From assembly GCF_963921235.1 (NCBI RefSeq), contig NC_086097.1, forward strand, positions 1,860,001 to 1,924,000: DNA of 64,000 bases, read 5' to 3'. Each line of letters opens with the position of its first letter. The first letter of the stretch is position 1. Origin of the DNA: Mobula hypostoma. Taxonomy: Eukaryota. Made by a program: the position numbers and the translations under genes. Shown here piece after piece: positions 17,395-55,700 of the stretch. The notes below the pieces were generated by a model that was given only the letters and a program-made list of their open reading frames with translations, searched no databases and was not told the origin of the DNA.

Positions 17395-17924
17395 TGTTGT
17401 TCGTCCATCGTTGACGTCGATGAGGACCTCGACACCATTATCATGGTGTCAAGACTAGCGCGTGATTTGGATTTAAGTGAGGGAGAGTTGCGCAGTGTCA
17501 GCCTCACTCTCTCTTCCCAATTCCCATCTGGATCCAGTGGCAAGACAGAGTCTAGACGGCTGGAGATGGGACTAGGCGCAGTGGATGACCAGGACGTCTT
17601 CTGTGTCTTGTCCTGCTCTACACGTTCCACGATGCTTGCAGAGACCGCCTTCTTGACCGTTGGACCTTCCATAGGTCTCGTCCGCTCAATCCACCGGAGT
17701 CTGTCTTCACATGCTGGGATAGACAACTCCCTATCTCACCGAGGGTTTAAGACCCGTCAGCTACCCTCACCTGGTTTAGCCGGCTTGTCGAAGCCGTTGC
17801 CCGGGGTGTGGCTGCTGTCGCATGCAAACAGCTACGGGGAGCCACAGGTGAGAGCTGAGTGCCAGGTGGGGACCAAAGGTGGACGAACCGCCCTGAAAAG
17901 GACGCGACATGTTCCCCTACCAGA
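17395..17924 (-). mobile_element. Non-autonomous RTE/BovB-type short element, copy 1
   Basis: Colinear with 54601-55150; AAC-type tail; 3' stem-loop; structured 5' region. Confidence 0.75.
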
Positions 17925-20900
17925 CAATAGGCACAGTAGAGGGCAGTAGGTTGGTGTCAGTCCAGGCTCTGGGTATTGAGGAGTCTGATGGCTTGGGGGA
18001 AGAAACTGTTGTACAGTCTGGTCGTGAGAGCCCGAATGCTTTGGTGCCTTTTGCCAGATGGCAGGAGAGAGAAGAGTTTGTATGAGGGGGGCGTGGGGTC
18101 TTTCACAATGCTGTTTGCTTTACGGATGCAGCGTGTGGTGTAAATGTCTGTAATGGCAGGAAGAGAGACCCTGATGATCTCAGCTGACCTCACTATCCGC
18201 TGCAGGGTCTTGCGATCCGAGATGGTGCAATTTCTGAACCAGGCAGTGATGCAGCTGCTCAGGATGCTCTCAATACAACCTCCGTTGAATGTGGTGAGGA
18301 TGGGGGGTGGGAGATGGACTTTTCTCAGCCTTCGCAGAAAGTAGAGACGCTGCTGGGCTTTCTTTGCTATGGAGCTGGTGTTGAGGGACCAGATGAGATT
18401 CTCCGCCAGGTGAACACCAAGAAATTCGGTGCTCTTAACGATCTCAACAGAGGAGATGTCTATGTTCAGCGGAGAGTGGTCACTCCGTGTCCTCCTGAGG
18501 TCAACAACCATCTCTTTTGTTTTGTTCACATTCAGAGACAGGTTGTTGACTCTGCACCAGTCCGTTAGCCGCTGCATCTCCTCTCTGTATGCTGACTCAT
18601 CGTTCTTGCAGATGAGACCCGCCATGGTTCTGTCATCAGCGAACTTGATGATGTGATTCGAGCTGTGTGTTGCAACACAGTCGTGGGTCAGCAGAGTGAA
18701 CAGCAGTGGACTGAGCACACAGCCCTGGGGGTCCCCGTGCTCAGTGTGATGGTGTTGGAGATGCTGCTCCCGATCTGGACTGACTGAGGTCTCCCAGTCA
18801 GGATGTCTAGGATCCCATTGCAGAGGGAGGTGTTCAGGCCCAGCAGGCTCAGCTTTCCAATCAGTTTCTGAGGAATGATTGTGTTGAATGCTGAACTGAA
18901 GTCTATGAACAGCATTTGAACGAACGTGTCTTTTTTGTCCAGGTGGGTTAAGGCCAGGTGGAGGGTGATGGCGACGGCGTTGTCTGTTGAACGGTTGGGA
19001 CGGTACGCGAACTGCAGGGGGTCCAGTGAGGGGGGCAGCAGGGTCTTGATGTGCCTCATGATGAGCCTCTCGAAACACTTCATGATGTTGGATGTGAGTG
19101 AACGGGACGGTAGTCGTTGAGGCAGGACACTGAAGACTTCTTCGGCACGGGGACGATGGTGGTAGCCTTGAAGCACGTTGGAACAACGGCGCTGCTCAGG
19201 GAGATGTTGAAGATGTCAGTGAGAATCTCAGCTAGCTGGTCTGCACATCCTCTGAGCACTCTGCCAGGAATATTGTCTGGTCCAGCAGCCTTCCGTGGGT
19301 TGACCCTGCACAGGGTTCCCCTCACATCGGCCACGGTAAGACACAGCACCTGGTCATTTGGAGGAGGGGTGGTCTTCCTCGCCGCCACGTCATTTTCCAC
19401 CTAAGAACGAGTGTAGAAGTTGTTCAACGCAACTGGGAGGGAGGCATCACCAGCACAGGCAGGTGTTGTCGTCTTGTAGTTGGTGATGTCCTGAATGCCC
19501 TTCCACATGCGCCGTGTGTCTCCACTGTCCTGGAAGTGGCTGTGGATTCGCTGGGCGTGTGCACGCTTTGCCTCTCTGATGGCCCGGGGCAATTTGGCCC
19601 TCGCTGTTGTTAGGGCTGTCTTGTCTCCTGCTCTGAAGGCGGAGTCACGGGTCCTCAGCAGCGCACGCACCTCCGCGGTCATCCAAGCGAAGCCCTGCTG
19701 TCTGCCATATCGCTTGATTTCACTTTGTAGGAGGTGCCCTGCCACTGTCAGGCATCCCTCGTTGATTCAGGCGTGGTCTGGAATCTCCACCTCGCCCATG
19801 AGGTGGCTTTCCGGGTAGCATGCCTGTACTTCTTGTAGCTTTCTTGGTCTCCAGAGTTGAATTCCTGGCATCTGGCTGTCAGCACCATTGGGAATGGTTA
19901 CTCCTTTCCTGTAGTTGATGGTGCTGCATTACAAATAGCTCGTAGAATGCAGAGCATCAGCTCTTTAACAGCGCCACTGAAACCGTGACTCCTGTCTGCT
20001 AATCATGACATTGATCGTATTGGTGAGGGAATTGAATCAACGCCAAGTCAAAGACCATTCTCATTTGGATGTGTTGCTTGGTCAGATTTCTAGGACTTAA
20101 AATGAGGTCATTGCAGGATATCGTAAGTTTCAGTGCTATGTGGCCATCTGTAAAATAAACTGCAGCAGTTTGTAAAGTAGAGTTCTGGCCATGTTATGTT
20201 TGGAGAATGAACTATTAAAGTCAACCTTCAATACACCTAAACCGTTAACATGTAGTTTTCACTGCCTCAGAGGACTGACCATGGGTTTGTATTCTAGCTG
20301 TCTGTTGATATGCTGTGCAATATGGAGAGCAAATTGCTAGCCACGTAGCTGATGAATCCAAAGGAACAGCAGAGAATCATACAGTCTGGCACCAGCAGTG
20401 TCGCAGGAGCTGCCAGTCAACATAGGACACCAGCTCTGGATTTTTCCCTTGCTTTACATCCAAAATCTTTTCTGTGAGTGGGTGTAGCGACAAGGCAGTG
20501 GAGGTTTAAGATCAGAGTTTCTTTCTCCCTTTCCAAGATTCAAAGTGCATATGCAGTAGACAACCCTGAGATTTATCTTTCTACAGACAGCCACGAAACA
20601 AAGAATATCGTGGATCCTGTTGAAAGAAGACGTATCAAACCCCCAATGTGCAAAAAAAACCACCAATAAAAACAGAAGCAAAACCCGCAGAATATAAAAT
20701 AGCAAACCACAAGTCATCAGAAGAGTTGAGGAATATTTATCTCAGTTCAGTCCAGCGCATTGTCGTCTCTGGAGTTCAGGCCGCAGAATCAGTCCAGCTA
20801 GACCAAAACCGCACAAAGCTGCAACGAAAAAGGGGTGAACAGAAATCAGAAACACATCATAACGCCAACTTACAGAGTACAATCCACCAACAGGGTCACT

Positions 20901-20954: not shown

Positions 20955-23900
20955 AGTGAGAGAGAGACCGGACACACGCAGGCACTTTCCTCCAGGAACA
21001 GCGAGAGTGAGAGGGACCGGACACACACAGGCACCTTCCTCCAGGAACAGCGAGAGGGAGAGAGACCGGACACACGCAGGGACTTTCCTCCAGGAACAGC
21101 GAGAGGGAGAGAGACAGGACACACGCGGGCACCTTCCTCCAGGAACAGCGAGAGGGAGAGAGACCGGACACACGCAGGCACCTTCCTCCAGGAACAGCGA
21201 GAGGGAGAGAGACCGGACACACGCAGGCACCTTCCTCCAGAACAGTGAGAGGGAGAGAGAGACCGGACACACACAGGCACCTTCCTCCAGAACAGCGAGA
21301 GGGAGAGAGAGACCGGACACACGCAGGCACCTTCCTCCAGAACAGTGAGAGGGAGAGAGAGACCGGACACACGTGGGCACCTTCCTCCAGAACAGCGAGA
21401 GGGAGAGAGACCGGACACACACAGGCACCTTCATCCAGGAACAGCGAGAGGGAGAGAGACCGGACACACGCAGGCACTTTCCTCCAGGAACAGCGAGAGG
21501 GAGACAGACCGGACACACGTGGGCACCTTCCTCCAGAACAGCGAGAGGGAGAGAGACCGGACACACGCAGGCACTTTCATCCAGGAACAGCGAGAGGGAG
21601 ACAGACCGGACACACGCAGGCACCTTCCTCCAGGAACAGCGAGAGGGAGAGAGACCGGACACACGCAGGCACCTTCCTCCAGGAACAGCGAGAGGGAGAC
21701 AGACCGGACACACGTGGGCACCTTCCTCCAGGAACAGCGAGAGGGAGAGAGACCGGACACACGCAGGCACCTTCCTCCAGGAACAGCGAGAGGGAGAGAG
21801 AGACCGGACACACGCAGGCACCTTCCTCCAGGAACAGCGAGAGGGAGAGAGAGACCGGACACACGCAGGCACTTTCCTCCAGAACAGTGAGAGGGAGAGA
21901 GACCGGACACACGCAGGCACCTTCCTCCAGAACAGCGAGAGGGAGAGAGACCGGACACACGCAGGCACCTTCCTCCAGAACAGCGAGAGGGAGACAGACC
22001 GGACACACGCAGGCACCTTCCTCCAGAACAGCGAGAGGGAGAGAGACCGGACACACACAGGCACTTTCCTCCAGAACAGCGAGGGGGAGAGAGACCGGAC
22101 ACACACAGGCACTTTTCTCCAGGAACAGCGAGAGGGAGAGAGACCGGACACACGCAGGCACTTTCCTCCAGAACAGCGAGAGGGAGAGAGACCGGACACA
22201 CGCAGGCACCTTCCTCCAGAACAGCGAGAGGGAGAGAGACCGGACACACGCAGGCACTTTCCTCCAGAACAGCGAGAGGGAGAGAGAGACCGGACACACA
22301 CAGGGACTTTCCTCCAGGAACAGCGAGAGGGAGAGAGACCGGACACACGCAGGCACTTTCCTCCAGGAACAGCGAGAGGGAGAGAGAGACCGGACACACG
22401 CAGGCACCTTCCTCCAGAACAGCGAGAGGGAGAGAGACCGGACACACGCAGGCACCTTCCTCCAGGAACAGCGAGAGGGAGAGAGACCGGACACACGCAG
22501 GCACTTTCCTCCAGAACAGCGAGAGGGAGAGAGACCGGACACACGCAGGCACTTTCCTCCAGAACAGCGAGAGGGAGAGAGACCAGACACACGCGGGCAC
22601 CTTCCTCCAGAACAGCGAGAGGGAGAGAGACCGGACACACGCAGGCACCTTCCTCCAGAACAGCGAGAGGGAGAGAGACCGGACACACGCAGGCACCTTC
22701 CTCCAGGAACAGCGAGAGGGAGAGAGAGACCGGACACACGCAGGCACCTTCCTCCAGAACAGCGAGAGGGAGAGAGAGACCGGACACACGCAGGCACCTT
22801 CCTCCAGAACAGCGAGAGGGAGAGAGACCGGACACACACAGGCACCTTCCTCCAGGAACAGTGAGAGGGAGAGAGACCGGACACACACAGGCACTTTCCT
22901 CCAGGAACAGCGAGAGGGAGAGAGACCAGACACACGCGGGCACCTTCCTCCAGGAACAGTGAGAGGGAGAGAGACCAGACACACGCAGGCACTTTCCTCC
23001 AGGAACAGCGAGAGGGAGAGAGACCAGACACACGCGGGCACCTTCCTCCAGGAACAGCGAGAGGGAGAGAGAGACCGGACACACGCAGGCACCTTCCTCC
23101 AGAACAGCGAGAGGGAGAGAGACCGGACACACGCAGGCACCTTCCTCCAGAACAGCGAGAGGGAGAGAGACCGGACACACGCAGGCACCTTCCTCCAGAA
23201 CAGCGAGAGGGAGAGAGACCGGACACACGCAGGCCCCTTCCTCCAGAACAGCGAGAGGGAGAGAGAGACCGGACACACACAGGCACTTTCCTCCAGGAAC
23301 AGTGAGAGGGAGAGAGACCGGACACACACAGGCACTTTCCTCCAGAACAGCGAGAGGGAGAGAGACCGGACACACGCAGGCACCTTCCTCCAGAACAGCG
23401 AGACGGAGAGAGACCGGACACACGCAGGCACCTTCCTCCAGAACAGCGAGAGGGAGAGAGACCGGACACACGCGGGCACCTTCCTCCAGGAACAGCGAGA
23501 GGGAGAGAGAGACCGGACACACGCAGGCACCTTCCTCCAGAACAGCGAGAGGGAGAGAGACCGGACACACGCAGGCACCTTCCTCCAGAACAGCGAGAGG
23601 GAGAGAGACCGGACACACGCAGGCACCTTCCTCCAGAACAGCGAGAGGGAGAGAGACCGGACACACGCAGGCACCTTCCTCCAGAACAGCGAGAGGGAGA
23701 GAGAGACCGGACACACACAGGCACTTTCCTCCAGGAACAGTGAGAGGGAGAGAGACCGGACACACACAGGCACTTTCCTCCAGAACAGCGAGAGGGAGAG
23801 AGACCGGACACATGCGGGCACTTTCCTCCAGAACAGCGAGAGGGAGAGAGACCGGACACACGCAGGCACCTTCCTCCAGGAACAGCGAGAGGGAGAGAGA

Positions 23901-26900
23901 GACCGGACACACACAGGCACTTTCCTCCAGGAACAGTGAGAGGGAGAGAGACCGGACACACGCGGGCACCTTCCTCCAGAACAGCGAGAGGGAGAGAGAG
24001 ACCGGACACACACAGGCACTTTCCTCCAGGAACAGTGAGAGGGAGAGAGACCGGACACACACAGGCACTTTCCTCCAGAACAGCGAGAGGGAGAGAGACC
24101 GGACACACGCAGGCACCTTCCTCCAGGAACAGCGAGAGGGAGAGAGAGACCGGACACACACAGGCACTTTCCTCCAGGAACAGTGAGAGGGAGAGAGACC
24201 GGACACACGCGGGCACCTTCCTCCAGGAACAGTGAGAGGCAGAGAGACCGGACACACGCAGGCACCTTCCTCCAGGAACAGCGAGAGGGAGAGAGACCGG
24301 ACACACGCAGGCACTTTCCTCCAGGAACAGTGAGAGGGAGAGAGACCGGACACACGCGGGCACCTTCCTCCAGGAACAGCGAGAGGGAGAGAGACCGGAC
24401 ACACGCGGGCACCTTCCTCCAGGAACAGTGAGAGGGAGAGAGACCGGACACACGTGGGCACTTTCCTCCAGGAACAGCGAGAGGGAGAGAGACCAGACAC
24501 ACACAGGCACTTTCCTCCAGGAACAGCGAGAGGGAGAGAGACCAGACACACGCAGGCACCTTCATCCAGGAACAGCGAGAGTGAGAGAGACCGGACACAC
24601 GCAGGCACTTTCCTCCAGGAACAGCGAGAGGGAGAGAGACCGGACACACGCAGGCACCTTCCTCCAGGAACAGCGAGAGGGAGAGAGACCGGACACACGC
24701 AGGCACCTTCCTCCAGGAACAGTGAGAGGGAGAGAGACCGGACACACGTGGGCACTTTTCTCCAGGAACAGCGAGAGGGAGAGAGACCGGACACACACAG
24801 GCACTTTCCTCCAGGAACAGCGAGAGGGAGAGAGACCAGACACACGCAGGCACCTTCATCCAGGAACAGCGAGAGTGAGAGAGACCGGACACACGCAGGC
24901 ACTTTCCTCCAGGAACAGCGAGAGGGAGAGAGACCGGACACACGCAGGCACCTTCCTCCAGGAACAGCGAGAGGGAGAGAGACCGGACACACGCAGGCAC
25001 TTTCCTCCAGGAACAGCGAGAGGGAGAGAGACCGGACACACGCGGGCACTTTCCTCCAGAACAGCGAGAGGGAGAGAGACCGGACACATGCAGGCACCTT
25101 CCTCCAGGAACAGCGAGAGGGAGAGAGACCGGACACACGTGGGCACTTTCCTCCAGGAACAGTGAGAGGGAGAGAGACCGGACACACGCAGGCACCTTCC
25201 TCCAGGAACAGCGAGAGGGAGAGAGACCGGACACATGCGGGCACTTTCCTCCAGGAACAGCGAGAGGGAGAGAGACCGGACACACGCAGGCACTTTCCTC
25301 CAGAACAGCGAGAGGGAGAGAGACCGGACACATGCGTGCACTTTCCTCCAGGAACAGCGAGAGGGAGAGAGACCGGACACATGCAGGCACCTTCCTCCAG
25401 GAACAGCGAGAGGGAGAGAGACCGGACACACGCAGGCACTTTCCTCCAGGAACAGTGAGAGGGAGACAGACCGGACACACGCAGGCACTTTCCTCTCGGG
25501 GTAGCGAGAGGGAGAGAGACCGGACACACGCGGGCACCTTCCTCCAGGAACAGCGAGAGGGAGAGAGACCGGACACATGCAGGCACTTTCCTCCAGGAAC
25601 AGCGAGAGGGAGAGAGACCGGACACACGCAGGCACTTTCCTCCAGGAACAGCGAGAGGGAGACAGACCGGACACACGCAGGCACCTTCCTCCAGGAACAG
25701 TGAGAGGCAGAGAGACCGGACACACGCAGGCACCTTCCTCCAGGAACAGTGAGAGGGAGAGAGACCGGACACACGCAGGCACCTTCCTCCAGGAACAGCG
25801 AGAGGGAGAGAGACCGGACACACGCAGGCACTTTCTTCCAGGAACAGCGAGAGGGAGAGAGACCGGACACACGCAGGCACTTTCCTCTGGGAGTAGCGAG
25901 AGGGAGAGAGACCGGACACACGCAGGCACCTTCCTCCAGGAACAGCGAGAGGGAGAGAGACCGGACACACGCAGGCACTTTCCTCCAGGAACAGCGAGAG
26001 GGAGAGAGAGACCGGACACACGCAGGCACTTTCCTCTGGGGGTAGCGAGAGGGAGAGAGACCGGACACACGCAGGCACTTTCCTCTGGGAGTAGCGAGAG
26101 GGAGAAGACCGGACACACGCAGGCACTTTCCTCCGGGGGTAGTGAGAGAGAGAGAGAGACCGGACACACGCAGGCACTTTCCTCCAGGAACAGCGAGAGG
26201 GAGAGAGACCGGACACACGCGGGCACTTTCCTCCAGGAACAGCGAGAGGGAGAGAGACAGGACACACGCGGGCACTTTCCTCCAGGAACAGCGAGAGGGA
26301 GAGAGACAGGACACACGCGGGCAGTTTCCTCCAGGAACAGCGAGAGGGAGAGAGACCGGACACACGCAGGCACTTTCCTCCAGGAACAGCGAGAGGAAGA
26401 GAGACCGGACACACGCAGGCACTTTCCTCTGGGAGTAGCGAGAGGGAGAGAGACCGGACATATGCGGGCACTTTCCTCTGTGGGTAGCGAGAGGGAGAGA
26501 GACCGGACACACGCAGGCACTTTCCTCCAGGAACAGCGAGAGTGAGAGGGACCGGACACACACAGGCACCTTCCTCCAGGAACAGCGAGAGGGAGAGAGA
26601 CCGGACACACGCAGGGACTTTCCTCCAGGAACAGCGAGAGGGAGAGAGACAGGACACACGCAGGCACTTTCCTCCAGGAACAGCGAGAGGGAGAGAGACC
26701 GGACACACGCAGGCACTTTCCTCTGGGAGTAGCGAGAGGGAGAGAGACCGGACACATGCGGGCACTTTCCTCTGTGGGTAGCGAGAGGGAGAGAGACCGG
26801 ACACACGCAGGCACCTTCCTCCAGAACAGCGAGAGGGAGAGAGACCGGACACACGCAGGCACCTTCCTCCAGGAACAGTGAGAGGGAGAGAGACCGGACA

Positions 26901-28120
26901 CACGCAGGCACCTTCCTCCAGGAACAGCGAGAGGGAGAGAGACCGGACACATGCAGGCACTTTCTTCCAGGAACAGCGAAAGGGAGAGAGACCGGACACA
27001 CGCAGGCACTTTCCTCTGGGAGTAGCGAGAGGGAGAGAGACCGGACACACGCAGGCACCTTCCTCCGGGAACAGCGAGAGGGAGAGAGACCGGACACCCG
27101 CATGCACTTTCCTCCAGGAACAGCGAGAGGGAGAGAGAGACCGGACACACGCAGGCACTTTCCTCTGGGGGTAGCGAGAGGGAGAGAGACCGGACACACG
27201 CAGGCACTTTCCTCTGGGAGTAGCGAGAGGGAGAAGACCGGACACACGCAGGCACTTTCCTCCGGGGGTAGTGAGAGAGAGAGAGAGACCGGACACACGC
27301 AGGCACTTTCCTCCAGGAACAGCGAGAGGGAGAGAGACCGGACACACGCGGGCACTTTCCTCCAGGAACAGCGAGAGGGAGAGAGACAGGACACACGCGG
27401 GCACTTTCCTCCAGGAACAGCGAGAGGGAGAGAGACAGGACACACGCGGGCACTTTCCTCCAGGAACAGCGAGAGGGAGAGAGACCGGACACACGCAGGC
27501 ACTTTCCTCCAGGAACAGCGAGAGGAAGAGAGACCGGACACACGCAGGCACTTTCCTCTGGGAGTAGCGAGAGGGAGAGAGACCGGACATATGCGGGCAC
27601 TTTCCTCTGTGGGTAGCGAGAGGGAGAGAGACCGGACACACGCAGGCACTTTCCTCCAGGAACAGCGAGAGTGAGAGGGACCGGACACACACAGGCACCT
27701 TCCTCCAGGAACAGCGAGAGGGAGAGAGACCGGACACACGCAGGGACTTTCCTCCAGGAACAGCGAGAGGGAGAGAGACAGGACACACGCGGGCACCTTC
27801 CTCCAGGAACAGCGAGAGGGAGAGAGACCGGACACACGCAGGCACTTTCCTCCAGGAACAGCGAGAGGGAGAGAGACCGGACACACGCAGGCACTTTCCT
27901 CTGGGAGTAGCGAGAGGGAGAGAGACCGGACACATGCGGGCACTTTCCTCTGTGGGTAGCGAGAGGGAGAGAGACCGGACACACGCAGGCACCTTCCTCC
28001 AGAACAGCGAGAGGGAGAGAGACCGGACACACGCAGGCACTTCCCTCCAGGAACAGCGAGAGTGAGAGAGATCGGACACACGCGGGCACCTTCCTCCAGA
28101 ACAGCGAGAGGGAGAGAGAC
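20955..28120. repeat. Minisatellite, ~7.2 kb, 48-51-bp unit (consensus GAGAGGGAGAGAGACCGGACACACGCAGGCACYTTCCTCCAGGAACAGC), about 145 copies
   Basis: Directly visible tandem array; copy number estimated as length divided by 49. Confidence 0.98.
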
Positions 28121-29507
28121 CCTTCTGGGCATCACTGAGTCGTGGCTGAAAGAAGGCCATAATTGGGAGCTGAACTTCAAAGGATATATTTTGTATCGAA
28201 AAGACGGGCAGGAAGGCGGAGACAGTGGTGTGACTCTGTTGGTACAGATGGAATTACATCTTTAGAAAGAGACGACATAAGACCAGAGAATGTTGAAACT
28301 TTGTGGGTGGAGTTTAGAAACTGCAAGGGTAAAAATACCTTTATGGGAATCATATATAGGCCTCTAAATAGTAGCCAAGATGTGGTGTTGAGATTGCAAA
28401 GGGAGCTGGAAAAGGCATTATGTTGGGGGACTTCAAAATGCAAGGGGATTGGGAAAATCACGTTGGTGTTGCATCACAAGAGAGGGAATTTGTTGAATGC
28501 TTATGAGATGGCTTTTGAGAGCAGTTTGTGCTTGAGCCTACTCTGGAAAATGCTATCTTAGATTGGGTGTTGTGTAATAACCCAGATCTTATTAGGGAGC
28601 TTAATGTAACGGAACCCTTAGGAGGCAGTGATCATAATATGATTGAATGCATACTGCAACTTAAGAGAGAGTAGCTTAAATCACATGTTTCTGTATTGTA
28701 ATGGAATAACGGGAATTATAGAGGCATGAGAGAGGAGCTTGTCCAGGTTGGTTGGAGGAGGATATTGTCAGGGATGATGGCCGAGCAGAGATGGCTGAAG
28801 TTTCTGGGAATAGTTCACAAGGCACAGGATAGATAGGTCCCACTGAAGAAAAAGTTCTCAGATGGCAGGGGTAGGCAACAATGGCTGACAAGGGAAGTTA
28901 AGGACTGCATAAAAGCCAAGGAAAGGGCACATAAGGTAGCAAAAGTGAGTGGGAAATTGGATGGTTGGGAACCTTTTAAAATCCAACTAAAGGCAATTAA
29001 AAAAAGCTATAAGAAGGGAAAAGATGAAATATGAGGGCAGATTAGCTGATAATATAAAGCAGGATACCAAAAGTTTTTTCAGTTTTATAAAGAGTAAAAG
29101 GGAGATGAGAGTTGATATTGGACCATTGGAAAATGATGCTGGTGAGGTAGTAATGGGGGACAAAGAAATGGCAGATGAACTTAATGGGTACTTTGCATCT
29201 GGCTTCACTGTGGAAGATACTCGCAGTGTGCCAGAGGTCTGAGAGTGTCAGGGAGCAGGAGTGAGTGCCTTTTCTATTACAAGGGAAAAAGTGCTCAAAT
29301 CTCTTAAGGTCAGTAAGTCACCTGGACAAGATGGACTACATCCCAGAGTCCTGAGAGAGGTTAGTGAAGAGATAATGGATTGATTGGTCATGATCTTTCA
29401 AGAATCACTTGACTCTGGCATGGTCCTGGAGGACTGGATGATTGCAAATGTCACTCCACTTTTTAAGAAGGGAGGAAGGCAAAAGAAAGGAACTTATAGG
29501 CCAGTTA

Positions 29508-35205: not shown

Positions 35206-35532
35206 CCTTAAGACGAAGCTATTGTGTGTGTTGGAACTACTGGTCATTGTTTACTAATGTTATGTGATTTATTGCAACAGCACCTTTCTGCACCACTTTA
35301 GCGTGTTTTATTTCATTGTTTGCTGGTGATTTAAAAAATGGGAAGTTGGATATGGGTCAGTTGGTTAATCTTAGAAAGCTGCATCTGAAGTGTTCCACCT
35401 CTGCTGTGGGCACTGGCCTCCCCAGCATAAAGGATGCCTTCGAAAGGTGGTGCCTCAGAGGTGGCCCATCATCTAGCACATGCCCTGAAGGCACACACTC
35501 AACATTTCAGCAACAGCTTCTTCTCCTCCTCC

Positions 35533-35846
35533 ACCATTAGATTTCTGAATGGACAATGAACCCGTGTACACTACCTCAGTCCCCCCGCCATCAGATTTCT
35601 GAACGGACAGTGAACCCGTGTACCCTACCTCAGTCCTCCCGCCATCAGATTTCTGAACGGACAATGAACCCGTGTACCCTACCTCAGTCCTCCCGCCATC
35701 AGATTTCTGAACGGACAATGAACCCGTGTACACTACCTCAGTCCCCCCGCCATCAGATTTCTGAACGGACAGTGAACCCGTGTACCCTACCTCAGTCCTC
35801 CCGCCATCAGATTTCTGAACGGACAATGAACCCGTGTACATTTCCT
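35533..35846. repeat. 54-bp tandem repeat (~5.8 copies) at a Rex1-type 3' end
   Basis: Unit CCATCAGATTTCTGAACGGACARTGAACCCGTGTACMCTACCTCAGTCCYCCCG. Confidence 0.95.
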
Positions 35847-36361
35847 CAATATTTTTTCTTCTTTTGCTCTCTTTTTGCACAACTTATTTAATTTCTTGAA
35901 TGTACATTATATTTTTGTAATTTATCGTTGTTTATTGCAATGTACTGCGGAAAAACAAATTTCATGATATATGTGGTGACATTAAACCGAATCCTGATGT
36001 TTTTTTTCAGTAGAGGTGAGGGGCTAACGGAGAAAATTGCCGGGATTCTCTTTGTTTATTTGTAACACTATGTCACTTCATTGGGGCAGGAGACTGTTGC
36101 CAAGGAATTTCTAACAAACATCAGTCATGTGCACTTGCATGGTCATTAGCACTCAGTGCTTCAAGCAAACAGTTTTTAAATAGTGTATGTTTGTGCTCAA
36201 AAAGCAGTGAATTTTGTCACTGACAGTTGGCGGGAAATAAGCGGTAAGACAATTCAGATCTGTTCTGTGCAGTGTGGTTTCAAGCATTCAGGCTTGGAGA
36301 TGCCAGAAACGGCCGGGGGTGAATGAAAAATTTCTCTGCTTTTCAAGTTAGAAGCTACAAC

Positions 36362-52749: not shown

Positions 52750-55700
52750 GTAAGCGGAGAAGCCGTTGTGTGGCTGGACCGTTGTTGGAGTGGCTTTGGC
52801 TTATTAGGCTTGTGTGAGCTAAGTATCTGATAAGTTTCTTCATCCTCTTTATTTCTCATTCCTCATCTGTTAGTGCCTCCCAGATAGCCACATCTACACC
52901 AGGTGCAGCTCCTCAGAACATTTTAAAGAACTGGAGCTACAGCTCAAAGACCTTTGACTCATATGGGAGACTGAGGAAATGATAGACGGGAGCTACAGGA
53001 AGGTAGTCAGCCCAAGGTTGTGGGATGCAAGTAACTGGGTGAGTGTCAGGAGAGGAAAGGGAGACAGACAGCTAGTGCAGAGCACCCCTGTGGCCGTTCC
53101 CCTCAATAACAAGTAGACAGTTTTGGACACCTGAGCAGGACGACGTACCAGAGGGGAGCTGCAGCGACTGCTCTCTGGCACTGTGGCGGAGAAGAGGAGC
53201 TGAAGCAGACTGCAGTAGTGATAGGAGATTCTATAGTTTGAGGAACAGAGACAATTCTGTGGACACAATATAGAGACACCCAGGTGGTATGTTACCTTCC
53301 AGGTCCCAGGGTTCCAGGATCAGGACCACAGCATTCTCAAGGAGGAGGGTGAGCAGCCAGAAGTCTTGGTATATATTGGCACTAATGACAGAGATAGGAA
53401 AACTGAGGAAGTCCTGAAGAGAGATTTTAGGGAGCTAGGTAGCAAGTCAAATAGCAGGATCCCCAGAGTAGTAATCTCTGGATTGCTGACTGTGACACGC
53501 ATCTGTGAGGGCAAGAATAGGATGATTTGGTTGAGGAGCTGGTGCAGGGGGCAGGAGTTCAGATTTATGGATCTTTGGGATCTCTACTCCGGAAGGTACT
53601 ACCTGTGCAAAAGGGACAGGTTATACCTGAACCTGAGGGGACCAAAATCCCTTTGGGCAGGTTGGCTGGAGTTGTTTGGGTGGGTTTAAACTAATTTGGC
53701 AGAGGGGTGGGAACTGGAGAGAAGGGCTGACGATGAGGTAGTTAGTTCACAAACAGAGGCAGTATATTGTGAGGCTGCTAGCGAGGGAAGGCTGGTGATA
53801 GGGCAAAATTTTAGTCAATGGGATGAGTTGCAATGTAAAAGGGGGACAAAATAAGAAGGATGAATACAGGACTCCAAGGTGTTGCATTTGAATGTGCGCA
53901 GTATACAGAATAAGGTAGATGATCTTGTAGCACAGTTACAGATTGGCAAGTATGACATGGACATCACTGAATCGTGGCTGAAAGAAGATTATAGCTGGGA
54001 GCTTAATGTCCAAGGATACACATTGTATCGAAAGAACAGGCAGGTAGGCTGAGGGCATGGGGTGGCTATGTTGGGGAAAAAATGAAATCAAATCATTAGA
54101 AACAAGTGACGTAGGATCAGAAGATGCAGGATCGTTGTGGGTAGAGCTAAGGAACTGTAAGGGTAAAAAGACCCTGATTGGAGTTGTGTACAGGCCCCTC
54201 AAACAATAGTAAGGATGTGGCCTGCAAATTACAATGGGCAATGGAAAATGTGTGCCAAAAGAGCAATGTTACAATAGTCATGGGGGAATTCAATAGGTAC
54301 ATTTAATGTCAGAGAAATGTATATAATATACATCCTGGAACTTTTTCTTTGCAAACATCCACAAAAACAGGAGTACCCCAATATGCAGGTAGATTGGAAA
54401 ATCAGTTTAGTGCTGGATTGGCTTTTTAGAGCAGCTCGTGATTGAGCCCACCAGGGGATCAGCTATTCTGGATTGGTTGTTATGCATGAACCAGAATTGA
54501 TTAGAGAGCATGGGCTAAAGGAACCCTTAGGGACCAGTGTACATAATGTTAGAATTCACCCTGCAATTTGAGAAGGAGCTAAAGTCAGTATTAGAATGGA
54601 GTTGTTGTTGTTGTTGTTGTTCGTCCATCGTTGACGTCGATGAGGACCTCGACACCATTATGATGGTGTCGAGACTAGCGCGCGATTTGGATTTAAGTGA
54701 GGGAGAGTTGCGCAGCGTCAGCCTCACTCTGTCTTCCCAATTCCCTTCTGGATCCAGCGGCAAGACAAGAGTCGAGACGGCTGGAGATGGGACTAGGCGC
54801 AGTGGATGACCAGGACGTCTTCTGTGTCTTGTTCTGCTCTACACTTTCCACGACGCTGTCAGAGACCGCCTTCTTGACCGTTGGACCTTCCGTTAGTCTT
54901 GTCCGCTCAATCCGCTGGAGTCTGCCTTCATATGCTGGGATAGACAACTCCCTATCTCACCGAGGGTTTGAGACCCGTCAGCTACCCTCACCTGGTTTAG
55001 CCGGCTTGTTGAAGCCGTTGCCCGGGGTGTGGCCGCTGTCACATGCAAACAGCTACAGGGAGCCACAGGTGAGAGCTGAGTGCCAGGTGGGGACCAAAGG
55101 TGGACAAGCCACCCTGAAAAGGACGCGACATGTTCCCCCACCAGAGGTACTAAATTACAGAGGCATGAAAGCGGAGCTGGCCAAAATTGATTGGAAGGGA
55201 ACACCAGCTGGGATGACAGCAGAGCATCAATGGCTGTACTTTCTGGGAGCAAGTCAGGAGGCATAGGATAGATACTTCCCAAAAAAGTAATTGTGATTTA
55301 ATATCTTTATTCTCATTGTTATGGAGCAATGAAACACAGTTTAGCAGCTCAACGTTTTGCAGCATGACAAAGAATATATACATAAAATCAACTCTAAAAC
55401 CTCAGGAGTGCAGTCCAAAATTAATAATATGGATGGGGGGGGGGGGGTGGTAGGACTATTGCACACCTGCCATTCCTGGAAGTGTGATGCATTTAGCTGT
55501 CACCGTCTTAGGAGGGGGGCAGGAGAAGGGAAGGAGGTGTTATACATTTCACTGCTTGTGGGTAGAAGCTGTTAAGGAGTCTCTGTTTTCGACCTTAATG
55601 CTCTGTATCTCTTCCCAGAAGGCAGAGGGGAAAACAGGTGATGTCCAGGATGAGTGGGATCCTTTGAAATAAAAGTAGCCTTCTTTTGAAGTCTGCCAGT

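What the first reader, a model, noticed from the sequence alone, without database searches (positions are those of the whole stretch)
54987..55073. HDV-like core with an extra helix inside L3 in a non-autonomous RTE element (second copy at 17766-17852)
Seen on the minus strand in both copies: P2 CUCACCUGU, P3 GGC, L3 starting UCCCYG, then an inserted stem GCUGU...ACAGC, P3' GCC, P1' ACACCCC (7 nt), GGGCAAC (same as HDV genomic G38-C44), P4 CGGCUU-CRAC-AAGCCG, GCUAA, and P2' ACCAGGUGAG. Known HDV-like ribozymes usually have a short 7-8 nt L3, so an L3 helix would be an atypical architecture. The 5' strand of P1 is missing in both copies, so neither should cleave as it stands. Inference: both are 5'-truncated, and full-length copies should begin with GGGGUGU.
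Basis: partly seen in the sequence, partly recalled or inferred. Interest (0 to 1): 0.72.

Follow-up and report, generated by a model that had tools for sequence, protein, structure and literature searches.

The report
HDV-like ribozyme with L3 hairpin
Two slightly cut-off copies of a short, very abundant jumping element carry the core of a self-cutting RNA of the hepatitis-delta type that has an extra hairpin in its catalytic loop, and complete copies elsewhere in the genome start exactly where that RNA should cut itself.

Summary
Both window copies (minus strand, 55152-54601 and about 17924-17396) hold every stated motif. They belong to a roughly 575-nt non-coding retroelement with an (AAC)n tail and target-site duplications. 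2038 genomic copies keep both P2 strands at the standard spacing.

The window copies lack the first 26 and about 33 nt. Other genomic copies run further 5' and begin GGGGTGT, the exact complement of the P1 3' strand ACACCCC. A second, older family (76-80% identity between copies) and one metagenome relative keep P1, P2, P3, the L3 U-CC-NN-G motif, P1.1, the J4/2 cytosine and the L3 hairpin. They show compensating changes in P4, P2 and the roughly 90-nt J1/2 domain.

My best reading (0.68) is a large HDV-like self-cleaving ribozyme that frees the element's 5' end from host co-transcripts. Its J1/2 domain and long P2 are known types. The 19-nt hairpin in the 3' half of L3 and the G-C pair at the cleavage site are unusual.

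Cleavage is not shown, the L3 stem has no covariation, and the RTE label is untested. I rate it a new variant of a known kind.

The parts
54601..55152 (-). Copy 1 of the non-autonomous retroelement (element positions 27 to about 578). It lacks the first 26 nt, including the P1 5' strand, and ends GACGAAC(AAC)6.
55078..55152 (-). Copy 1: the surviving part of the J1/2 peripheral domain (positions 27-101). The 5' strand of its basal helix (positions 11-20) is missing.
55066..55076 (-). Copy 1: P2 5' strand (positions 103-113: 8 Watson-Crick pairs plus a 3-pair extension with wobbles).
55062..55064 (-). Copy 1: P3 5' strand, GGC.
55034..55061 (-). Copy 1: L3, 28 nt (positions 118-145). It opens with U, CC (the P1.1 5' strand, 55060-55059), two variable bases and G (55056), the same spacing as HDV U20-G25 (HDV numbering recalled).
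55035..55053 (-). Copy 1: the extra hairpin in the 3' half of L3 (positions 126-144). Stem GCUGU(U)/(G)ACAGC. The loop holds GCAUGC in the family majority and reads GCAUGU in this copy.
55031..55033 (-). Copy 1: P3 3' strand, GCC.
55024..55030 (-). Copy 1: P1 3' strand, ACACCCC. It has no partner in this truncated copy.
55022..55023 (-). Copy 1: GG, the P1.1 3' strand.
55002..55017 (-). Copy 1: P4 hairpin, CGGCUU-CAAC-AAGCCG.
54995..55001 (-). Copy 1: J4/2, GCUAAAC. The candidate catalytic cytosine is at 55000.
54984..54994 (-). Copy 1: P2 3' strand (positions 185-195).
17396..17924 (-). Copy 2 of the element (from about position 34 to the 3' end). It lacks P1 and the start of the J1/2 domain and ends GACGAAC(AAC)1.
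17763..17855 (-). Copy 2: ribozyme core from P2 to P2' (positions 103-195). L3 hairpin 17832-17814, P1 3' strand 17809-17803, P4 17796-17781, candidate catalytic C at 17779.

Best explanation
The 87-nt stretch is the 3' four-fifths of a roughly 195-nt HDV-like self-cleaving ribozyme. This ribozyme forms the 5' end of a roughly 575-nt non-coding, non-LTR retroelement present in thousands of copies.

In a full-length RNA, G1-U7 (GGGGUGU) pairs with ACACCCC (positions 149-155) to form P1. A 3-nt linker leads into a roughly 90-nt irregular hairpin (positions 11-101), a J1/2 peripheral domain of the P1.2 type. Then come an 11-pair P2, a 3-pair P3, and an L3 that opens with the canonical U-CC-NN-G but carries a 19-nt hairpin in its 3' half. 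After that come P3', P1', the two-pair P1.1, a 6-pair P4, and J4/2 (GCUAAA) with the catalytic cytosine.

The element has no recognisable promoter of its own. My inference is that it is transcribed as part of host or neighbouring transcripts. The ribozyme then cuts immediately 5' of G1, which releases an RNA whose first base is the element's first base. That RNA is copied back into DNA by a partner LINE's enzyme, which recognises the 3' stem-loop and (AAC)n tail.

What is shown: the sequence anatomy, the 5' terminus of the DNA copies, conservation across two families and one outside relative, and compensating changes in P4, P2 and the J1/2 domain. What is inferred: cleavage itself, co-transcription, tolerance of the L3 hairpin, and the partner LINE.

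The two window copies lost P1 when they inserted and are dead as ribozymes.
For: 1. Blind prediction met. Full-length copies begin GGGGTGT, the exact complement of ACACCCC. A given 7-mer at a given place has a chance of about 6 in 100,000.

2. The 5' boundary is at G1. Target-site duplications place it there, within 1 nt, in 9 of 15 copies. In contigs of another run, depth rises at that base and flanks diverge at locus positions 1461-1463, in 69, 83 and 63 contigs with flank agreement 0.36-0.38.

3. An older family has the same 5' start (3338 first-look candidates, 40 scored, 39 of them at 76-80% identity to the query copy). In the majority of its 30 fetched copies, P1, P2, P3, U-CC-NN-G, the L3 hairpin, P1', P1.1 GG and GGCUAAAC are unchanged, while J1/2, J1.1/4 and the sequence after P2' differ.

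4. Compensating changes:
- P4 pair 163:176 is G-C in 18 young rows and C-G (8), U-G (7) or U-A (2) in old rows. P4 pair 166:173 is U-A versus U-G.
- In the J1/2 basal helix, U-G (18 rows) alternates with U-A (17 rows).
- In inner J1/2 pairs, A-U (23) alternates with G-C (18), and G-C (20) with A-U (16).
- The metagenome relative L091 (75.9% identity over 485 nt) changes P2 from C-G to A-U, G.U to A-U and U.G to C-G, and keeps P1 and P3 intact.

5. Over 41 rows, 90.2% of cells are paired, against 36-47% when the partners are slid by 1-3 columns.

6. The J1.1/4-P4-J4/2 stretch resembles the Rfam HDV-F-prausnitzii consensus (GGCAACGG...CCGGCUAA), though below threshold.

7. There is precedent in print. 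Large natural HDV-like ribozymes have structured J1/2 domains and a 12-pair P2 (PMC4908430, part 1 of the text read). R2 J1/2 loops reach 216-498 nt and one R2 has a 4-nt P1 (PMC3774820, passages). HDV-like ribozymes occur in promoter-less RTE and baggins elements and in non-autonomous elements (PMC6765202, passages).

8. No tRNA, 5S or 7SL-like head was found that could give a Pol III start.
Against: 1. No Rfam family reaches its threshold: 0 hits at gathering score in the window. The only HDV-type hit scored 14.1 bits against a gathering score of 44, E = 7.1, and it did not appear at all on the full-length copy.

2. L3 is 28 nt, where the known ribozymes have 7-8. L3 builds the active site, so the insert might abolish activity.

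3. The first P1 pair is G-C, not the G.U wobble of HDV.

4. P1, P3, P1.1 and the L3 stem never covary. The only changes in the L3 stem are one-sided (C-G to U.G in 36% of the depth of one run; U.G to U-A at a CpG site).

5. The nested minimum-energy fold prefers the rival hairpin UGUGGC/GCCACA (-81.8 kcal/mol, against -77.2 for the forced P2+P3+L3 stem+P4 set without P1). It is also no better than shuffled sequence (z = 0.07; 105 of 200 shuffles fold at least as well).

6. RNAalifold on the 41 rows did not recover the HDV helices and put the L3 stem in another register.

7. A young subfamily has A at position 6 (8 of 29 copies, linked to A at position 73 in 7 of those 8, against 6 of 20 other copies). 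This gives an A.C mismatch in P1, yet these copies still start at position 1.

8. There is no RNA evidence. All runs served were assembled contigs, which cannot show RNA ends.

9. Most of the covariation is between just two families, that is, few independent events. L091 is a single copy that also has a 9-nt deletion in the J1/2 base.
Confidence: 0.68

Rival explanations
1. A ribozyme relic. The structure descends from an HDV-like ribozyme, but the L3 hairpin, alone or together with the G-C cleavage-site pair, has abolished cleavage. The element's exact 5' end is then set by transcription starting at G1 from an internal promoter. The conserved RNA fold serves another role, such as protein binding, translation or RNA stability.
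For: L3 is 28 nt and no Rfam model reaches threshold. A subfamily with a P1 mismatch still spreads with the same 5' end. The L3 hairpin, including its loop, is unchanged in three lineages, which suggests a sequence-specific role. HDV-like ribozymes of retrotransposons have been proposed to help translation and to bind the element's protein (PMC6765202, passages).
Against: The first 7 nt are exactly complementary to the P1 3' strand in the young family, in the old family's majority and in L091. U-CC-NN-G, P1.1 and GCUAA are all kept across lineages, which is hard to explain without catalysis. No Pol III-type head was found. No promoter evidence was sought or found.
Confidence: 0.2
2. P1 is formed by the second GGGGUGU (positions 10-16), so the RNA is cut 5' of G10. 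The first nine bases are then a leader that is normally lost.
For: The heptamer occurs twice. The second copy is better kept (exact in 21 of 29 copies, against 8 of 29 for the first). It is preceded by U, which PMC1874588 reports as the best base at position -1 (abstract in the listing). One copy starts at G10/11 (L015) and one at about position 12 (L024).
Against: Most copies in both families, and L091, include positions 1-9, so the RNA that was copied still had them. Positions 11-20 pair with 92-101 in every minimum-energy fold of young copies and of the less decayed old copies, with one-sided and insertion-linked changes that keep the pairing. L091 lacks the second heptamer but keeps the first.
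Confidence: 0.07
3. Chance resemblance. The element's 5' region merely happens to be foldable into an HDV-like scheme.
For: G+C-rich sequence folds easily and the nested energy is not special (z = 0.07). No covariance model reaches threshold.
Against: The a priori prediction of the terminal heptamer was met. All core motifs are in the right order and spacing. There are compensating changes in P2, P4 and J1/2. 90.2% of cells are paired against 36-47% in slid controls.
Confidence: 0.03

Closest known systems
HDV-like ribozymes at the 5' end of non-LTR retrotransposons (R2, RTE, baggins, L1Tc)
   Same: The ribozyme sits at the very 5' end of the element and the cleavage site equals the element's first base. 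The presumed role is release from a co-transcript for elements without their own promoter (PMC6765202, passages; PMC3774820, passages).
   Different: The host is a vertebrate (earlier notes call it a cartilaginous fish; not tested here). The carrier is a roughly 575-nt non-coding element. L3 is 28 nt with a hairpin. The first P1 pair is G-C. No Rfam model reaches threshold.
Large HDV-like ribozymes with a J1/2 peripheral domain (drz-Agam-2-1; P1.2 plus an extended P2)
   Same: A structured domain lies between P1 and P2 with short linkers (3 nt and about 1 nt here) and a long P2 (11 pairs here, 12 in Agam-2). [quoted passage not shown]
   Different: The domain here is about 90 nt with its own sequence. 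Its base contains a second copy of the P1 heptamer. There is also the extra L3 hairpin.
Non-autonomous derivatives that keep the parent's 5' ribozyme (R2 SIDEs; NARTc of L1Tc)
   Same: A short element with a 5' HDV-like ribozyme and a 3' end for the partner's reverse transcriptase (PMC3414825 and PMC3383444, abstracts in the listing).
   Different: The partner is unknown here. Insertion is not site-specific: flanks are diverse and target duplications of 7-13 nt were found. Copy number is in the thousands.
Genomic HDV ribozyme
   Same: The order P1-P2-P3-L3-P3'-P1'-P1.1-P4-J4/2-P2'. L3 starts U-CC-NN-G. The young family has GGGCAAC after P1'. J4/2 carries the cytosine followed by purines. (HDV sequence and numbering are recalled, not from a call.)
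   Different: An L3 of 8 nt in HDV against 28 nt here; G.U against G-C at the cleavage site; a J1/2 of a few nt against about 95 nt; a different P4. The older family has GGUACAC in place of GGGCAAC.

Membership tests
HDV-like self-cleaving ribozymes | Nested double pseudoknot with strands in the order P1, P2, P3, L3, P3', P1', P1.1, P4, J4/2, P2' | tested here: met
   All helices can form in a natural full-length copy: P1 7 pairs, P2 8+3, P3 3, P1.1 2, P4 6. 90.2% of cells are paired over 41 rows, against 36-47% in slid controls. L091 keeps all of them apart from scattered mispairs in P1.1 and P4.
HDV-like self-cleaving ribozymes | The cleavage site lies immediately 5' of the first base of P1, so the product RNA begins with P1 | tested here: met
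   This is indirect evidence, from DNA copies. Full-length copies begin with the P1 5' strand. Target-site duplications end at G1, within 1 nt, in 9 of 15 copies. Flanks diverge there in contigs of another run. The cut itself was not observed.
HDV-like self-cleaving ribozymes | Catalytic cytosine in J4/2 | tested here: met
   GGCUAAAC is kept in the young family, the old family and L091, and is nearly invariant over the 41 rows. The cytosine is at window 55000 and 17779. Its chemical role cannot be tested with these tools.
HDV-like self-cleaving ribozymes | Short L3 (7-8 nt) with a conserved U, two P1.1 bases and a G | tested here: not met
   The 5' part is canonical: U-CC-NN-G, with the two middle bases CY in the young family and AA in the old family and L091. 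But L3 is 28 nt because of a 19-nt hairpin. No relatives with a short L3 exist at the same P2 and J4/2 anchors. The 86 hits at 20-50 nt spacing, read by eye, lack scattered, different segments, against 2038 hits at the standard spacing.
HDV-like self-cleaving ribozymes | P1.1: two pairs between L3 and the bases after P1' | tested here: met
   C119-G157 and C120-G156 can pair. 86.6% of cells are paired; the losses are at the CpG site.
HDV-like self-cleaving ribozymes | G.U wobble as the first pair of P1 (typical of HDV; how strict this is across the family is recalled, not checked) | tested here: not met
   G1 pairs with C155: G-C in 26 of 41 rows, G-U in 3 decayed copies.
HDV-like self-cleaving ribozymes | Match to a curated covariance model (Rfam) | tested here: not met
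   0 hits at gathering score in the window. HDV-F-prausnitzii scored 14.1 bits against 44, E = 7.1, over J1.1/4-P4-J4/2 only. Nothing was found on the full-length copy.
HDV-like self-cleaving ribozymes | Self-cleavage giving a 5'-hydroxyl product | not testable with these tools
   Only assembled contigs were served for the sequencing runs.
Non-autonomous non-LTR retroelement | Short, with no reverse-transcriptase gene, dispersed copies with target-site duplications and a simple-repeat 3' tail | tested here: met
   About 575 nt. The longest sense frame is 122 aa, with no relatives among longer proteins. Duplications of 7-13 nt were found in 15 of 29 copies. The tail is GACGAAC(AAC)n. 2038 copies have intact P2 strands.
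RTE clade (as partner or parent) | Shares its 3' end, and perhaps its 5' ribozyme, with an autonomous RTE element in the same genome | not tested
   No partner was found. The reverse-transcriptase search was swamped by one LINE family with 1264-aa frames. There were no 3'-end-only matches in the 354 kb held and no protein relatives.
Pol III SINE (tRNA, 5S or 7SL head) | A 5' head derived from a Pol III gene, with internal promoter boxes | tested here: not met
   ARAGORN found 0 genes and no Rfam tRNA, 5S or 7SL match appeared up to E = 10 on the full-length copy.

The most novel reading that the evidence does not exclude
The hairpin inside L3 is a functional add-on to the active-site loop rather than a tolerated insert. 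Its loop carries the 6-nt palindrome GCAUGC, unchanged in three lineages that differ by 20-25% elsewhere. It could act as a kissing-loop dimerisation site or as a handle for the partner's reverse transcriptase. That would couple self-cleavage to RNA pairing or particle assembly. It would be the first natural HDV-like ribozyme whose catalytic loop holds a regulatory or docking helix.
Probability: 0.12. Interest if true: 0.85.

Novelty: new variant of a known kind. Interest (0 to 1): 0.62.

Why it matters
L3 forms the active site of HDV-type ribozymes, together with J4/2 and the base of the P2-P3 stack (PMC4908430). Known members keep L3 short and nearly invariant. If a natural, evolutionarily successful member carries a 19-nt helix in L3 and a G-C pair at the cleavage site, the rules used to search for these ribozymes would need widening. 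Descriptor and covariance-model searches miss this one.

It would also show where the active-site loop can be extended, which is useful for engineering switches. And it would add a very abundant vertebrate retroelement to the list of elements that use self-cleavage to define their 5' end.

It is directly testable with one in vitro transcription assay.

Tried and rejected
- **Rfam.** Nothing at gathering threshold in the window, and only chance-level hits at E up to 10.
- **tRNA scan.** No genes found.
- **Search for an autonomous partner.**
  - The Pfam RVT_1 search of the genome gave 150 scored hits, all from one LINE family (open frames up to 1317 aa, many of exactly 1264 aa), and no loci could be cut.
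  - The 3' part of the element matched nothing except its own copies in the window plus 90 loci.
  - The 122-aa sense frame had no relatives among longer proteins.
- **Search for relatives with a short L3.** The 86 hits at 20-50 nt spacing, read by eye, are young or old copies with scattered, different deletions.
- **Search for a P2 A-U subfamily in this genome.** 1 copy only.
- **RNA evidence.**
  - All 24 runs listed were assembled contigs, and only one of them is on record as RNA.
  - Two contigs of run X1 (RNA status is a guess) end exactly at G1. That is one run only, while contigs of X2 carry unlike sequence upstream of position 1462. I count this as no evidence.
- **Public collections.**
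  - Viral contigs: 0 matches.
  - Genome contigs: 8 matches that share only the motif itself, which is chance.
- **Automatic folding.** RNAalifold on the 41 rows gave a weak consensus (-20.4 kcal/mol) that misses the pseudoknotted helices. The nested energy z-score was 0.07.
- **Old copy beside L025.** The single decayed old copy was uninformative on its own.
- **Papers.**
  - Four were not held: Ruminski 2011, Webb 2009 and Cerrone-Szakal 2008 by PMC id, and Ruminski 2011 also by DOI. What they say about RTE ribozymes, L3 length limits and G-C at the cleavage site is recalled or taken from reference lists only.
  - A six-term search for ribozymes in sharks was badly designed and uninformative.
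- **Earlier findings.** Nothing by words or by sequence.
Full report
**What is in the window**

The two stretches belong to two copies of one repeat that are 94.2% identical over 531 nt: window 54615-55145 and 17395-17924. Copy 1 runs from 55152 to 54601 and ends GACGAAC(AAC)6. Copy 2 runs from about 17924 to 17396. Rfam finds nothing at its thresholds. In permissive mode, only the stretch GGGCAAC-P4-GGCUAA aligns weakly to the HDV-F-prausnitzii model (14.1 bits against a gathering score of 44, E = 7.1).

**The family and its true 5' end**

The window lies in a 3.47-Gb assembly. A 241-nt query from copy 1 gave 3487 first-look candidates, and all 40 that were scored are 96-100% identical. I fetched 30 loci, one of which is the window copy itself.

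All 29 others align to the window copy from its very first base and then continue 5' for up to 26 more bases.

| Feature, over the 29 copies | Exact | 1 mismatch | 2 mismatches | Shorter or unclear |
|---|---|---|---|---|
| Positions 1-7 (GGGGTGT) | 8 | 10 | 4 | 7 |
| Second heptamer, positions 10-16 | 21 | not counted | not counted | not counted |
| ACACCCC | 26 | not counted | not counted | not counted |

A script found target-site duplications of 7-13 nt in 15 of the 29 copies. They place the element's first base as follows:
- at G1, within 1 nt, in 9 copies;
- at position 3-4 in 2 copies;
- at position 10-12 in 2 copies;
- 7 bases upstream in 1 copy;
- one call lies in a GT-rich flank and is unreliable.

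The contigs of another sequencing run, laid on a full-length locus, show depth rising at G1. Flanks diverge at locus positions 1461, 1462 and 1463 in 69, 83 and 63 contigs, with flank agreement 0.36-0.38. So the window copies are truncated by 26 and about 33 nt, and the family has a sharp 5' end at the G that would be the ribozyme's first base.

**Anatomy of the full ribozyme**

Numbering follows a natural copy, L026, where position = locus coordinate minus 1462. For window copy 1, window coordinate = 55179 minus position. Helices were checked by script.

| Part | Positions | Notes |
|---|---|---|
| P1 | 1-7 with 149-155 | 7 Watson-Crick pairs; the first pair is G-C |
| Linker | 8-10 | |
| J1/2 domain | 11-101 | long irregular hairpin; its basal helix is 11-20 with 92-101, so the second GGGGUGU is structural |
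| P2 | 106-113 with 185-192 | 8 pairs, extendable by 103-105 with 193-195 |
| P3 | 115-117 with 146-148 | |
| L3 | 118-145 | U118, C119 C120 (P1.1 with G157 G156), two variable bases, G123, then U124 A125 |
| L3 hairpin | 126-131 with 139-144 | 7-nt loop; followed by G145 |
| J1.1/4 | 158-161 | |
| P4 | 162-167 with 172-177 | |
| J4/2 | 178-184 | GCUAAAC, with C179 = window 55000 |

Young copies and the less decayed old copies fold the J1/2 stretch into the same architecture on their own.

**Evolutionary support**

A diverged copy found by chance beside L025 led to an older family. That search gave 3338 first-look candidates; 40 were scored, and 39 of them are 76-80% identical to the query copy. 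This family has the same 5' start.

I compared the majority of its 30 fetched copies with a young copy:
- **Unchanged:** P1, P2, P3, the L3 hairpin (stem and loop), P3', P1', the P1.1 GG and GGCUAAAC.
- **Changed:** the two middle L3 bases (CY to AA), J1.1/4 (GCAA to UACA), three P4 positions, much of the J1/2 domain, and the sequence after P2'.

I then counted pairs on an alignment of 41 rows. These were 18 of the 29 young and 23 of the 30 old copies, chosen by me because their 5' ends could be aligned. The rows left out were young L004, L008, L009, L010, L015, L018, L019, L020, L022, L024 and L028, and old L031, L037, L038, L043, L052, L054 and L058. Results:
- 90.2% of cells are paired, against 36-47% when partners are slid by 1-3 columns.
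- P4 pair 163:176 is G-C in 18 rows and C-G (8), U-G (7) or U-A (2) in the old rows.
- P4 pair 166:173 is U-A versus U-G.
- The basal J1/2 helix has U-G (18 rows) versus U-A (17 rows).

In the old family an inserted C takes over from A18 as the partner of position 94, which is G there (U in the young family). I read this by eye.

RNAalifold found two further inner J1/2 pairs that change on both sides: A-U in 23 rows against G-C in 18, and G-C in 20 against A-U in 16.

One scan of public metagenome contigs found a single relative, L091, at 75.9% identity over 485 nt. In L091, P2 changes C-G to A-U, G.U to A-U and U.G to C-G. P1, P3 and the L3 stem stay paired. Its second heptamer is deleted. 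This A-U form occurs only once in the window's genome.

These are few independent events: two families plus one single copy. Post-insertion decay of copies is neutral, so the percentage of paired cells mostly reflects descent. P1, P3, P1.1 and the L3 stem never covary.

**Is the L3 hairpin a constant feature?**

Yes. With exact P2 and J4/2 anchors, 2038 copies have the standard spacing of 56-58 nt. Only 86 copies have 20-50 nt. Read by eye, these lack different, scattered segments, and the 30 I fetched are young or old copies with deletions. No lineage with a canonical short L3 was seen.

The hairpin with its GCAUGC loop is identical in the young majority, the old majority and L091, apart from CpG changes. 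In one other organism's run, 36% of depth has C127 changed to U, which keeps a wobble pair.

**Points against, or neutral**

- Forcing P2, P3, the L3 stem and P4 costs 4.6 kcal/mol before P1 (-9 kcal/mol taken alone) and P1.1 are counted, and a nested model cannot count them.
- A young subfamily has A at position 6 (8 of 29 copies), linked to A at position 73 (7 of those 8, against 6 of 20 other copies). It therefore carries an A.C mismatch in P1, yet it still starts at position 1.
- The first seven bases vary more among copies than the rest, as expected for 5' junctions, so many copies are probably born without a working P1.
- The first P1 pair is G-C, not G.U.
- No RNA data could be used, because only assembled contigs were served.

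**What kind of element is it?**

It is about 575 nt long and has no tRNA, 5S or 7SL-like head. Its longest sense frame is 122 aa, with no relatives among longer proteins. It has target-site duplications, and a 3' inverted repeat (read by eye) followed by (AAC)n. It is therefore a non-autonomous non-LTR retroelement.

Whether its partner is an RTE could not be tested.

**Comparison with what is in print**

- HDV-like ribozymes at the 5' ends of R2, L1Tc, baggins and RTE elements, and in non-autonomous derivatives, are established. Promoter-less elements are thought to rely on co-transcription followed by self-cleavage (PMC6765202, passages; abstracts of PMC3414825 and PMC3383444 in the listing).
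- Large J1/2 inserts are known: 216-498 nt in silkmoth R2 (PMC3774820, passages).
- Structured J1/2 domains with a long P2 activate cleavage (PMC4908430, part 1 of the text).
- In R2, P1.1, P3 and L3 together make only fifteen highly conserved nucleotides, and the L3 G is needed for activity.
- G25 of L3 matters in a newly solved member (PMC13635239, passages).
- I found no paper describing a helix inside L3. A phrase search returned 5 papers with at least two of the terms (4 listed), none of them on HDV-like L3.
- I found no paper containing three signature strings of this element.
- The only 2 papers holding 'HDV-like', 'ribozyme' and 'shark' together are on other topics, to judge from their titles and abstracts in the listing.
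- Ruminski 2011, Webb 2009 and Cerrone-Szakal 2008 were not held. Those papers and their supplements could contain similar cases that I could not see.

**Verdict**

It is most likely (0.68) a working or recently working HDV-like ribozyme of the large, J1/2-domain type that defines the 5' end of an abundant non-autonomous retroelement. It has two unusual traits: a hairpin in the 3' half of L3 and a G-C pair at the cleavage site. I rate it a new variant of a known kind, with interest 0.62.

Noticed in passing
window 20960-28121: A 49-bp satellite array with 146 copies and 92% matches. It fills 7 kb between the two element copies.
   Followed up: partly
window about 17925-18080, minus strand: Directly 5' of copy 2 lies the end of another retroelement. 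Read by eye, its frame ends with an ...NSFFPQAIRLLN-like tail. Copy 2 is truncated against it.
   Followed up: no
L011:1778-1810 and L015:1768-1810 (minus strand of each locus): Two young copies on different contigs sit at the same point of the same other repeat. They share the flank and the same 13-nt target duplication, but one starts at position 1-2 and the other at position 10-11. This is either an insertion hot spot or a composite that was copied.
   Followed up: no
L026:1228-2064, minus strand: A 278-aa stop-free frame runs antisense through the whole element and into both flanks. It could be chance or exonisation; I did not examine it.
   Followed up: no
window 55042-55047 and 17821-17826 (L3 hairpin loop): The loop holds the palindrome GCATGC in the family majority, the older family and the metagenome relative. 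Copy 1 has GCATGT through CpG decay.
   Followed up: partly
genome-wide (G000): The 150 best reverse-transcriptase matches belong to one LINE family, many with intact 1264-aa frames. There were 332,530 first-look candidates.
   Followed up: no
L091:1-831 (metagenome contig): A relative of the element sits in a public metagenome contig, presumably animal DNA in that sample. Its 5' end shows a 20-nt tandem duplication that includes the P1 heptamer.
   Followed up: partly
window 35527-35848: A 54-bp tandem repeat with 6 copies and 93% matches.
   Followed up: no
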